Positions 51,616 through 53,787 of a stretch of DNA of 64,000 nt are shown piece after piece. The notes under the pieces are model-generated. The model saw only the letters and a list, made by a program, of their open reading frames with translations. It had not been told where the DNA came from and searched no databases. Each line of letters starts with the position of its first letter. Within the stretch, counting starts at the first letter, position 1. The DNA is from an uncultured archaeon (GTDB lineage: Archaea; Asgardarchaeota; Lokiarchaeia; Sigyniarchaeales; SOKP01), in contig CAZWEM010000016.1 in assembly GCA_964632315.1 (NCBI GenBank), positions 13,924-77,923 on the forward strand. Reading direction: 5' to 3'. Position numbers and translations under genes: made by a program.

Positions 51616-52148
51616 ATTAACTACACAAAATTCAAGGAGTTTTTTGAACTATATTAAAGAGAGGTCAATAAAGAGTTTTATCAATTTTAAATATAGTAAA
51701 AAAGAGTTACTTTGGGTTAAAATCTCTATTTGGAAAAAAAATTATTCTCCCCGACAATTCTCCTTCTTTTTTCTCATCATTTTCTTGGAAATAAAAATAA
51801 AACCTACCAATATCAGTATTAATCCTATACTTGAATCTTTTTTTATTCAAAATTTTAAGGCGTTTCAATAGAATGTTATTCCAATAGACACTCATTACCA
51901 TTTATTAAACAAATTTTTTTTTAAATAAGAGGAATATTATCCAAATATTCCAAGAATCCATAGTTTAAATCAAAAAAAAATAAATGAGATGATTCATATA
52001 CTTAAATTAATCATCAATATTTGGATGATTTTAAAGAATTTTGAAAGCTTGAAAGTTATAATATTGCTTTATGGACAAATAATTCATTCAAATTATATTA
52101 TTCAAAAAAGTTTATTGAAATAATTAAAATAAGAAGAAGTGATTCAAG

Positions 52149-53362
52149 ATAACAAATAATCAAGTTGATTTTACCACTAAATATATTATCGAAGCTAAAT
52201 TTGAAATTAAGGGGGTAGTCGAAAAGTCCGATATCGTCGGCGCCATTTTCGGCCAAAGATAAAATTTAAAGGCCATTTCGGCTTGATCGGCTAAACGGAA
52301 GGTCTCCTTTTAGATCTAGATTTGAGAGATCTTCAAAAATCGGGACGAATTGGGCGTATTGAAGTTGAGAATGAATCAAAGGAAGGTATTTCTGAAGGCG
52401 TGATTAAAATACCTTCCAGCCTGACCCGAAAAGAAACTGCATTATTGGCGGCGACCGTTGAGACTGTTTCGAGAGTAGGTCCTTGTGATGCTAAAATAAC
52501 TTTAGTAGAAATAAGAGATGTTAGAGAAACTAAAAGAAAAAAGATTATAGAAAGAGCAGCAGAGTTACTAAAAGAATGGGATCAAAATTCATTAGAACCG
52601 AGTGAAATCGAGGAAAAAATCGATACTGATATCAAATTGGGGGAGATTATCACTTGGGGTCCAGAAGAATTACCAGCAGGACCAGAAGTAGATACCAATT
52701 CAGAAATGATAATCGTAGAAGGAAGAGCTGATGTTTTAAACCTTTTGAGGATCGGTCTAAAGAACACTATCGCAGTTCAAGGAACGCAAGTGCCGAAATC
52801 AATAGTTGATCTTTCTAAAAAGAAAGAAACTGTTATCGCTTTTGTGGATGGAGACCGTGGAGGAACAATTATTCTTAATGAATTGCTACAAATAGCTAAA
52901 GTAGATTACGTGGCGAGAGCACCCGAGGGCTATGAAGTTGAAGAATTAACAAGGAAGCAAATGATAAAATCTCTTCAAAATAAAAAACCCATCAGTGATT
53001 CAAATGAAATAGAAGAAGTTATCGATGAAAAAGAATATTCTGGAAAAGATGCTACAATAAAAAAACTTCTGAAGAAAATTAAAATAAAAAATTATGATCT
53101 CGTAATCGATACTATTAATAATTTACCCCAAGGAGTAGCAATTGGCTATAATAAAAGCATAGATAAACTCTTTGAAATTCCTATAAGCGAGCTTTTCGAC
53201 AGTCTCGGCAATTTTAAAGAAACTCAGGTGCTCATTATTGATGGAATCTTAACTAAAAGGTTATTATCATTAATATTAACTCTTAAAATTAAATTTATTG
53301 CTTGTAAAAATAAAGAAGAAGACCTATCTTTCCCTGAAAATATTATAGTCTTCTTTTTCTAA
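52149..53362 (+). CDS. dnaG: Archaeal DnaG (exosome-associated TOPRIM protein) in two exons, 52149-52256 and 52295-53362, about 391 aa, ATA start
   Basis: Exon 1: (M)TNNQVDFTTKYIIEAKFEIKGVVEKSDIVGAIFGQ. Exon 2: TEGLLLDLDLRDLQKSGRIGRIEV...VEGRADV...FVDGDRGG. The conserved GAIFGQTEGLL is restored only by removing 38 nt. Confidence 0.93.
52257..52294 (+). other. Putative 38-nt BHB-type (tRNA splicing endonuclease) intron in dnaG mRNA
   Basis: Central helix GGCC (52251-54)/GGCU (52289-92), AAA bulges at 52255-57 and 52293-95, intron helix GAU/AUC. Cutting after the second nucleotide of each bulge gives GGC CAA ACG in frame. Confidence 0.8.
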
Positions 53363-53787
53363 TTTTTTTCTACTTTTATAAAAGTCATGTTAATTGGAAT
53401 TCCTTTAACTAAGGGATCATATATTGGGCAGAATTTTTTGAATTCATTTATACAATTATTTATCTTATCTGTGAATCCTACATTCCCAATAGAATATCTA
53501 AATAAAATTTCAATCCCAATTAATCTCAAATTCATTTTAGGAGGTAAGTGTTTGATTTTTCCATCAACCTCAATTTCCAAACTAAGAAGGGATATCTCTT
53601 TTTTTTGAAAACAATAAGTGAATGTTGAACCTAAGCATCCACCTATCCCAATTAAGAAATATTCAATTGGACTTGGTCCTCTATCGTTTCCCCTAAAAGA
53701 TTCAGGTTCATCTAATATGATATTCTTAAATTTTCGAGCTTCAGCTATGAAGTTTAAGTTATCTTTATAATTTAAGGTAACCTTCAT
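53359..53787 (-). CDS. OsmC/Ohr-family protein
   Basis: DEP...GNDRGPSPIEYFL...GGC and FCPIY with the two conserved Cys. Confidence 0.9.
   Translation of the reverse strand: MKVTLNYKDNLNFIAEARKFKNIILDEPESFRGNDRGPSPIEYFLIGIGGCLGSTFTYCFQKKEISLLSLEIEVDGKIKHLPPKMNLRLIGIEILFRYSIGNVGFTDKINNCINEFKKFCPIYDPLVKGIPINMTFIKVEKN

What the first reader, a model, noticed from the sequence alone, without database searches (positions are those of the whole stretch)
52242..52303. Candidate bulge-helix-bulge intron inside the protein-coding gene dnaG
Seen: the conserved DnaG peptide GAIFGQ|TEGLL is split by 38 nt (52257-52294, agataaaatttaaaggccatttcggcttgatcggctaa) that contain an in-frame TAA and shift the frame. 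The junctions form a splicing-endonuclease substrate: a 4-bp central helix GGCC/GGCU, two AAA bulges, an intron helix GAU/AUC plus an internal hairpin AGGCC-auuuc-GGCUU, and a looser exon-exon helix (UUUC/GGAA, GCC/GGU), so a relaxed BHB/BHL. Established: EndA cuts after the second nucleotide of each 3-nt bulge, and applying that rule gives exactly GGC-CAA-ACG (G-Q-T). Archaeal mRNA introns are known from few genes, mainly crenarchaeal cbf5. Inference: an Asgard mRNA spliced by the tRNA machinery (EndA plus RtcB), again in an RNA-metabolism gene since DnaG is an exosome subunit. This is reminiscent of eukaryotic HAC1/XBP1-type non-spliceosomal splicing. I cannot confirm whether it has been reported.
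Basis: partly seen in the sequence, partly recalled or inferred. Interest (0 to 1): 0.95.

Follow-up and report, generated by a model that had tools for sequence, protein, structure and literature searches.

The report
tRNA-type mini-intron splitting Asgard dnaG
The only dnaG gene of this Loki-type Asgard archaeon is broken by a 38-base insert shaped like the introns cut out of archaeal tRNAs; the same site is interrupted in over 50 related species, with matching changes on both sides of the RNA helix, so the message almost certainly has to be spliced, which I found confirmed in print for only one archaeal protein gene (cbf5).

Summary
dnaG is split between GAIFGQ and TEGLL by 38 nt (52257-52294). 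[quoted passage not shown]

- **Not an artefact:** DNA contigs from 4 runs in 4 studies span the insert without gaps.
- **Single copy:** this is the only dnaG in the genome, and the 38-mer is unique.
- **Same site in relatives:** 52 related Lokiarchaeia genes carry 29-43 nt at exactly this codon boundary. Most of the remaining genomes sampled read straight through the site.
- **Covariation:** in all 45 distinct sequences the 4-bp central helix is fully paired. Its third pair tracks the wobble base of the Gly codon (C-G, A-U, U-G, G-C, G-U).
- **Selection on exon 1:** synonymous changes outnumber non-synonymous ones 2.7:1, as in intron-less genes.
- **Enzymes:** the genome encodes two EndA paralogues and RtcB.
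- **Other sites and lineages:** further dnaG introns lie 21 nt upstream (4 genomes) and 13 nt downstream (another Asgard family). The original site is also occupied in Ca. Freyrarchaeum and one more family.
- **Other genes:** leuS and a GH38 gene of this genome carry similar 30-nt introns.
- **Missing:** I found no RNA evidence for this organism.

The scan had already noted dnaG BHB introns in at least 30 other genomes, and BHB introns in other genes of this genome. I found no publication on either.

The parts
52136..52143 (+). Shine-Dalgarno-like GAAGTGAT upstream of dnaG (inferred)
   Evidence: GAAGTGATT is conserved at this position across the family. It resembles the anti-16S motif GGAGGTGAT (my knowledge). 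The window has a 1-nt longer spacer than its relatives, which fits an untranslated stretch.
52149..52256 (+). dnaG exon 1; the start is probably the non-canonical ATA at 52149 (inferred); ends ...GAIFGQ
   Evidence: There is no ATG, GTG or TTG in frame after the TGA at 52140-52142. The 'ITN' codon is conserved in the family, and in one relative a stop codon stands directly before it. Synonymous versus non-synonymous changes run 2.7:1.
52245..52250 (+). 5' strand of the loose exon-exon helix (AUUUUC)
   Evidence: Pairs with 52298-52303 when the 3' bulge is 5 nt. These pairs are fixed by coding, so they show almost no covariation.
52251..52254 (+). central helix H, 5' strand (GGCC, in exon 1)
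   Evidence: 100% paired with the 3' strand in 45 distinct sequences, with five pair types at the third position. RNAalifold predicts this helix on its own.
52255..52257 (+). 5' bulge AAA; predicted cut between 52256 and 52257
   Evidence: The EndA rule (cut after the 2nd bulge base) coincides with the codon boundary.
52257..52294 (+). 38-nt BHB intron
   Evidence: Unique in the genome. No Rfam family matches.
52258..52260 (+). intron helix h', 5' strand (GAU)
   Evidence: Pairs with 52286-52288. The three pairs hold in 45/45, 43/45 and 38/45 sequences.
52270..52284 (+). inner intron hairpin AGGCC-auuuc-GGCUU
   Evidence: The GCC/GGC core is paired in all sequences that have it; C-to-U changes keep wobble pairs.
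52286..52288 (+). intron helix h', 3' strand (AUC)
52289..52292 (+). central helix H, 3' strand (GGCU, in the intron)
52293..52295 (+). 3' bulge AAA; predicted cut between 52294 and 52295
   Evidence: AAA in 42 of 45 sequences.
52295..53365 (+). dnaG exon 2 (355 codons plus stop)
   Evidence: NCBIfam NF003108 'DNA primase DnaG', 364.5 bits (cut-off 300). The match starts at profile position 27, so the missing 26 positions correspond to exon 1. Toprim Pfam domains.
52298..52303 (+). 3' strand of the loose exon-exon helix (GAAGGU)

Best explanation
The 38 nt at 52257-52294 are a bulge-helix-bulge (tRNA-type) intron in the dnaG pre-mRNA. In the transcript, the last exon-1 bases GGCC pair with GGCU at the intron's 3' end. 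This helix is flanked by two AAA bulges and continues into an intron hairpin. The heteromeric splicing endonuclease EndA cuts after the second base of each bulge, and RtcB joins the exons to ...UUC GGC CAA|ACG GAA GGU.... That restores GAIFGQ|TEGLL and one open reading frame of about 391 codons. Unspliced RNA can only give a peptide of about 38 residues, because a TAA follows two codons into the intron. Shown here: the DNA insert, the conserved and covarying RNA structure, selection on both exons, and the presence of the enzymes. Inferred: the cleavage and ligation themselves, and the circular fate of the intron. The intron is old and inherited vertically in this Lokiarchaeia family. One clade of the window's genus lacks it, which is consistent with a precise loss.
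For: - **Same site in relatives:** 29-43 nt inserts lie at the identical codon boundary in 52 genes (45 distinct sequences) from 8 genera of the family plus one other family. Only 4 of the 45 lengths are multiples of 3.
- **Central helix:** all 4 pairs hold in 45/45 sequences. The third pair reads C-G 28, A-U 7, U-G 6, G-C 2, G-U 2, so the Gly wobble base and an intron base change together. Shuffling the partners gives a mean of 28 and a maximum of 38 of 45 fully paired.
- **Whole structure:** The count of structure pairs gives 94.5% of cells paired, against 25-54% when the partners are slid by 1 to 3 columns. RNAalifold alone predicts exactly this helix.
- **Exon 1 is still translated:** synonymous to non-synonymous changes run 2.7:1, the same as in intron-less relatives. 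Exon 2 is open at full length in all of them.
- **Gene identity and copy number:** one dnaG per genome. Exon 2 is an equivalog match to DnaG that lacks only the first 26 profile positions.
- **Real DNA:** contigs from 4 runs of 4 studies span the insert without gaps. One strain variant changes two bases (52265, 52267) in the unpaired stretch of the intron between h' and the inner hairpin.
- **Enzymes:** two EndA paralogues at 31% identity and RtcB. Asgard EndA is reported as the (alpha-beta)2 type with the L1 loop, which confers broad substrate range (PMC5829648).
- **Tree:** the 11 intron-less genes sampled from the window's genus form one clade (support 96/93), which fits a single loss.
Against: - No spliced or circular RNA was seen for this organism.
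- The exon-exon helix is weak, and the 3' bulge is effectively 5 nt.
- For this one sequence the BHB fold (-8.2 kcal/mol) is not the minimum-energy fold (-9.5). The region folds no better than shuffled sequence (z = 0.32).
- Transcription and translation are usually coupled in archaea, so a ribosome could reach the intron, about 110 nt from the start, before splicing. How this is avoided is unknown.
Confidence: 0.9

Rival explanations
1. The BHB is a cleavage-only element. EndA cuts the dnaG mRNA to lower its level without exon ligation, and a shortened DnaG is made from the internal TTG at 52322.
For: A 346-codon ORF starts at TTG 52322, and this is what public gene calls use (346-348 aa). 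My recollection is that EndA also cuts a BHB motif outside the coding region of a Haloferax mRNA (PMC7714728); I did not read that paper here.
Against: Exon 1 keeps the same synonymous excess as in intron-less genes, so it is translated in frame with something. In all 45 sequences the BHB cut sites fall exactly on the codon boundary that restores the conserved GAIFGQ|TEGLL, which cleavage alone does not require. The DnaG profile needs the 26 N-terminal positions.
Confidence: 0.04
2. dnaG is a pseudogene, or is decaying, after insertion of a small mobile element.
For: There is an in-frame stop and a frameshift. No canonical start codon is in frame.
Against: It is the only dnaG copy. The interrupted state persists in over 50 species with full-length open exon 2 and purifying selection on both exons. 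The 38-mer is not repeated in the genome. Compensatory changes indicate selection on the RNA structure.
Confidence: 0.02
3. Ribosomes skip the 38 nt by translational bypassing or frameshifting, as in phage T4 gene 60.
For: A stop codon lies just after the break and the gap contains a hairpin, which superficially resembles gene 60 (my knowledge).
Against: Bypassing needs matching take-off and landing codons. Here CAA is followed at the landing side by UAA|ACG, with no match. Across relatives the two 4-mers co-vary as base-pairing partners (GGAC/GUCU, GGGC/GCCU), not as identical codons. Gap lengths vary from 29 to 43 nt.
Confidence: 0.02
4. The insert is an assembly or sequencing artefact.
For: The window comes from a metagenome-assembled genome with 8.6% estimated contamination.
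Against: Contigs assembled independently from 4 runs of 4 studies span 52257-52294 with no gap, and one is a diverged strain. Dozens of other assemblies hold related inserts.
Confidence: 0.01

Closest known systems
BHB intron in the cbf5 (pseudouridine synthase) pre-mRNA of Crenarchaeota (Desulfurococcales, Sulfolobales; Watanabe 2002 and Yoshinari 2006 as cited in Yokobori 2009, PMC2738675)
   Same: A short BHB-type intron inside a protein-coding gene for an RNA-metabolism factor. It occurs in a lineage with a hetero-oligomeric EndA. It is inherited vertically and absent from some lineages, and automatic gene calls miss it.
   Different: The host gene is dnaG and the phylum is Asgard/Promethearchaeota. 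It occupies three neighbouring sites in different lineages. The covariation sample is far larger. Splicing is not yet shown by RNA here, whereas cbf5 splicing was shown experimentally.
Archaeal tRNA and rRNA BHB introns cut by EndA and joined by RtcB
   Same: A 4-bp helix flanked by bulges, cuts after the second bulge base, an intron hairpin (h'), and a size of a few tens of nt. The enzymes are present in the genome. Asgard tRNA genes are reported as heavily interrupted (bioRxiv 10.64898/2026.10.13.758758).
   Different: The substrate is an mRNA, and the exon strand of the helix is constrained by codons. The outer helix is weak and the 3' bulge is enlarged, so the motif is relaxed.
HAC1/XBP1 mRNA splicing by IRE1 and tRNA ligase (RtcB in animals) in eukaryotes
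   Same: Protein-only, non-spliceosomal removal of a short frame-shifting intron from an mRNA, with ligation by the tRNA ligase.
   Different: The nuclease is different (IRE1, not EndA) and so is the motif (twin 7-nt loops). That splicing is stress-regulated. This is an analogy, not shared membership.
Translational bypass of 50 nt in phage T4 gene 60
   Same: A coding gap that has a stop codon at its start and contains a hairpin.
   Different: Matching take-off and landing codons are absent, and the covariation here is of the base-pairing kind. Rejected.

Membership tests
Archaeal BHB (EndA-type) intron | 4-bp central helix between the two cut sites | tested here: met
   GGCC/GGCU in the window. 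180 of 180 cells are paired in 45 distinct sequences, with compensatory changes.
Archaeal BHB (EndA-type) intron | 3-nt bulge on each strand, cut after the second bulge base, giving the functional junction | tested here: met
   Bulges AAA and AAA. The rule lands exactly on the GQ|TE codon boundary in 45/45 sequences.
Archaeal BHB (EndA-type) intron | Strict hBHBh' form: outer exon-exon helix directly adjoining the 3-nt 3' bulge | tested here: not met
   In register 0 the first pair forms in 0 of 45 sequences. Pairing appears only in register +2, so the 3' bulge is about 5 nt. This is a relaxed motif of the kind reported to be cut by (alpha-beta)2 EndA with the L1 loop (PMC5829648).
Archaeal BHB (EndA-type) intron | Inner intron helix h' adjoining the 5' bulge | tested here: met
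   GAU/AUC. The pairs hold in 45/45, 43/45 and 38/45 sequences. Other lineages have a longer hairpin.
Archaeal BHB (EndA-type) intron | Splicing endonuclease and RNA ligase encoded by the host | tested here: met
   Two EndA paralogues over the Pfam and TIGR00324 cut-offs, 31% identical to each other, and RtcB at 568 bits. I did not check the L1 loop, or which paralogue is catalytic.
Archaeal BHB (EndA-type) intron | Spliced exons and excised (circular) intron seen in RNA | not testable with these tools
   No RNA run is listed as holding the gene. No spliced form appears in the contig or protein collections.
Archaeal pre-mRNA intron (cbf5 type) | Interrupts a conserved coding sequence, with intron-less alleles at the same site in relatives | tested here: met
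   Among the 101 genes whose junction I read, 49 are contiguous at this site, in the same genus, family and class. The 11 intron-less genes sampled from the window's genus form one clade.
Group I / group II intron or other known RNA family | Match to a ribozyme or an Rfam family | tested here: not met
   No Rfam match at E up to 1 in 51900-52600. 38 nt is also too short.
Programmed translational bypass (gene 60 type) | Matching take-off and landing codons | tested here: not met
   CAA versus UAA in the window. The two 4-mers co-vary as pairing partners.

The most novel reading that the evidence does not exclude
The first ~40 codons of dnaG are a hot spot for BHB introns that can relocate. Asgard lineages carry them at three sites within 35 nt, and the site 21 nt upstream holds an intron whose body resembles the main-site intron. 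The intron may therefore have moved, for example by reversal of the EndA/RtcB reaction on the mRNA followed by copying back into DNA, with its 3' end re-tuned to pair with the new exon. Together with the leuS and GH38 introns of this genome, and others noted by the scan, this would mean that Asgard archaea run a protein-only mRNA splicing system across many genes, including core housekeeping ones.
Probability: 0.3. Interest if true: 0.95.

Novelty: new member of a known kind. Interest (0 to 1): 0.8.

Why it matters
[quoted passage not shown] The 2009 cbf5 paper states that no other gene had been confirmed (PMC2738675), and my four literature searches found nothing on Asgard mRNA or dnaG introns.
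- **What is new:** here a core, single-copy gene is interrupted. DnaG is annotated as a primase and, to my knowledge, is also an exosome subunit. The interruption holds across a whole family of Lokiarchaeia and in other Asgard classes, the closest known relatives of eukaryotes.
- **Consequence for biology:** expression of a housekeeping gene would depend on the tRNA-splicing enzymes. That makes questions about pre-spliceosomal mRNA splicing, intron gain, loss and movement, and the coupling of translation to RNA processing directly testable.
- **Consequence for annotation:** public gene calls for the close relatives that I infer to carry the intron are 320-348 aa instead of about 390, so annotation pipelines truncate such genes.

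Tried and rejected
- **RNA runs:** no RNA holder is listed for the gene. The only runs that could be laid were DNA contigs.
- **Spliced-junction scans:** exact-pattern scans of the JGI metagenome contigs found nothing, either for this species or for the 32-nt-intron lineage.
- **Spliced-form proteins:** I looked for a ~390-aa protein at 88% identity or more, which could be a spliced-form call. All such close hits are 320-348 aa.
- **Genome-wide scan:** I scanned the genome for BHB-flanked, frame-restoring inserts. It recovered dnaG, leuS and GH38. It also returned thousands of chance joins of neighbouring genes, with no peak in intron length, so it cannot give a count.
- **Single-sequence folding:** it does not predict the BHB. 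I gave this little weight, because bulged motifs bound by protein are rarely minimum-energy folds.
- **Rfam:** no match.
- **Repeat or mobile-element idea:** the 38-mer has no other copy of 16 nt or more in the genome.
- **GTG 52139 as start:** rejected. It is out of frame in the window, and it sits in a conserved GAAGTGAT that looks like a ribosome-binding site.
- **Other readings:** pseudogene, bypass, cleavage-only and artefact are treated under the rival explanations.

Full report
**1. What is in the sequence**

Searches show dnaG on the + strand.
- Exon 1 ends ...VVEKSDIVGAIFGQ at 52256.
- Then come 38 nt (52257-52294), which begin AGA TAA in the exon-1 frame and shift the frame.
- Exon 2 starts at 52295 with TEGLLLDLDLRDLQKSGRIGRIEV and runs 355 codons to the stop at 53363-53365.
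- Exon 2 is an equivalog match to NCBIfam 'DNA primase DnaG' (364.5 bits, cut-off 300). The match starts at profile position 27, so what is missing is what exon 1 encodes.
- The genome (4.45 Mb, 119 contigs, 33% GC) has only this dnaG, and the 38-mer occurs once.

**2. The insert is real DNA**

No RNA run holds the gene. Contigs assembled from four DNA runs of four studies (salt marsh and similar) cross 52257-52294 without a gap. One of them is a diverged strain that keeps the insert and changes two bases (52265, 52267) in the unpaired stretch between h' and the inner hairpin.

**3. The structure**

- **Central helix:** GGCC (52251-54) pairs with GGCU (52289-92).
- **Bulges:** AAA (52255-57) and AAA (52293-95).
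- **Intron helix:** GAU (52258-60) pairs with AUC (52286-88).
- **Inner hairpin:** 52270-84.
- **Predicted junction:** cutting after the second base of each bulge gives GGC CAA|ACG GAA.
- **Outer helix:** the exon-exon helix pairs only when the 3' bulge is read as 5 nt (AUUUUC 52245-50 with GAAGGU 52298-303).
- **Energy:** the whole BHB fold costs -8.2 kcal/mol against -9.5 for the minimum-energy fold. A plain fold of the region is no better than shuffled sequence.

On this one sequence the motif is plausible but not compelling.

**4. Relatives decide the matter**

I searched dnaG in 161 genomes of the class and read the 5' ends of about 100 of them.

Distribution:
- 52 genes carry 29-43 nt at exactly the GQ|TE boundary. 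Of these, 51 are in the window's family (8 genera) and one is in a second family.
- 49 of the genes I read are contiguous at this site.

Covariation among the 45 distinct intron-bearing sequences:
- All four central-helix pairs form in all 45.
- The third pair reads C-G 28, A-U 7, U-G 6, G-C 2, G-U 2. When the wobble base of the Gly codon changes, the partner base in the intron changes with it (GGCC/GGCU, GGUC/GGCU, GGAC/GUCU, GGAC/GUUC, GGAC/GUUU, GGGC/GCCU, GGGC/GUCU).
- Dealing the partners out at random gives a mean of 28 fully paired, and never more than 38.
- On a MAFFT alignment, 94.5% of cells pair, against 25-54% when partners are slid by 1-3 columns.
- RNAalifold, given no hint, predicts exactly this helix.

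Coding evidence:
- Only 4 of the 45 lengths are multiples of 3, so the insert is not tolerated as extra protein.
- Exon 1 of intron-bearing genes shows 13,921 synonymous against 5,066 non-synonymous codon differences (2.7:1). Intron-less genes give the same ratio, 3,899 to 1,444.

An RNA structure that is kept by selection, and whose geometry marks the exact frame-restoring boundaries, is what a spliced BHB intron predicts. A pseudogene, a bypass or a cleavage-only site does not predict it.

**5. Machinery**

The genome encodes two EndA paralogues (207 and 205 aa, 31% identical, both over the TIGR00324 cut-off) and one RtcB. Asgard EndA is described as the (alpha-beta)2 type with the L1 insert, which goes with broad, relaxed-BHB specificity (PMC5829648). 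That fits the enlarged 3' bulge. I did not check the L1 loop or the catalytic residues in detail.

**6. History**

A DnaG tree was built from 21 genes of the window's genus plus 8 genes from other families of the order. In it, the 11 intron-less genes of the genus form one clade (support 96/93), and the intron-bearing ones lie outside it. The intron is also present in seven other genera. Together this fits an old intron with a precise loss. The caveat is that this is a midpoint-rooted gene tree.

**7. Wider pattern**

Other dnaG sites and lineages:
- Four genomes of three genera lack the main-site intron and instead have 30-31 nt between EKSDI and VGAIFGQ, 21 nt upstream, with helices AGAU/AUCU, AGAU/GUUU, AGAU/GUCU and CGAU/GUCU.
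- Two of these upstream introns resemble main-site introns more than any of 200 shuffles do. This hints at relocation but does not prove it.
- In a phylum-wide search, three other families gave two-piece matches. I inspected five of those genomes.
- One genome has a 32-nt BHB intron at the same GQ|TE site.
- A second has a 31-nt intron at GQ|LE. An exact protein look-up names this genome Ca. Freyrarchaeum guaymaensis.
- Two genomes of a third family have 28- and 31-nt introns 13 nt downstream (TEGL|LG).
- A fifth genome, of the Freyrarchaeum family, gave no strict BHB solution. A 34-nt insert at GQ|LE would pair only three of the four central-helix positions. I worked that out by hand and did not compute it.

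Other genes of the window's own genome:
- My scan also recovered 30-nt BHB inserts that restore hallmark motifs in leuS (...PMGYD|SFGLPAENAA).
- It did the same in a GH38 gene (...THWDRE|WYLPF).

**8. What is known**

- Yokobori 2009 (PMC2738675) states that no archaeal pre-mRNA splicing had been confirmed for genes other than cbf5.
- A 2026 preprint on Asgard tRNA introns deals with tRNA genes only.
- Four full-text searches found nothing on dnaG or Asgard mRNA BHB introns.
- Earlier notes of this scan list dnaG BHB introns in at least 30 other genomes, and two of them claim RNA with the spliced junction. Other notes list BHB introns in other genes of this genome.
- I re-found the leuS and GH38 cases myself. 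I could not test the RNA claims.

**9. Verdict**

This is a genuine, conserved BHB intron in an essential-type protein gene of an Asgard archaeon, and a new member of the cbf5 kind. It has strong comparative support and no RNA proof for this organism. The relatives are titled Promethearchaeota/Promethearchaeia, including Loki_b31 and Loki_b32.

Noticed in passing
window 52136-52151: dnaG has no ATG, GTG or TTG in frame. Across the family a conserved GAAGTGATT (Shine-Dalgarno-like) is followed 4-5 nt later by a conserved ATT or ATA ('ITN'). In one relative a stop codon lies directly before that Ile codon. The start is therefore probably a non-canonical AUA/AUU codon. The window has one extra base in the spacer.
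   Followed up: partly
L031 199-228 (+), L032 198-228 (+), and L054 and L065 (minus strand): A second dnaG intron site lies 21 nt upstream (EKSDI|VGAIFGQ). It holds 30-31 nt BHB inserts in four genomes of three genera that lack the main-site intron. Two of these inserts resemble main-site introns beyond 200 shuffles, which hints that the intron moved.
   Followed up: partly
L110-L114 (other Asgard families): dnaG is also split in three other Asgard families. The same GQ|T/LE site is used in one family and in Ca. Freyrarchaeum guaymaensis (32 and 31 nt). A site 13 nt downstream (TEGL|LG) is used in another family, all 18 of whose matched genomes gave two-piece matches.
   Followed up: partly
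G000 contig C41, 26254-26283 (minus strand): A 30-nt BHB-flanked insert with a 7-bp hairpin splits leuS. Its removal restores ...LYPMGYD|SFGLPAENAAIDHG.
   Followed up: partly
G000 contig C4, 136906-136935 (+): A 30-nt BHB-flanked insert splits a GH38-type gene. Its removal restores ...ETHWDRE|WYLPFQEY.
   Followed up: partly
whole genome G000: ARAGORN finds only 30 tRNA genes in a genome estimated at 99.5% complete, and calls introns in 19 of them (some calls look spurious). This fits reports that Asgard tRNA genes are heavily interrupted and under-detected.
   Followed up: no
public protein calls P0002-P0014: Gene callers truncate dnaG in the window's closest relatives (88% identity or more) to 320-348 aa, starting downstream of the site. 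Relatives at about 77% identity are called at about 393 aa. I did not read the DNA behind these proteins; that the short ones carry the intron is inferred from their lengths.
   Followed up: no
window 52265 and 52267: A co-occurring strain in one salt-marsh run keeps the intron but has T>C at two positions in the unpaired stretch between h' and the inner hairpin, plus silent exon changes.
   Followed up: no
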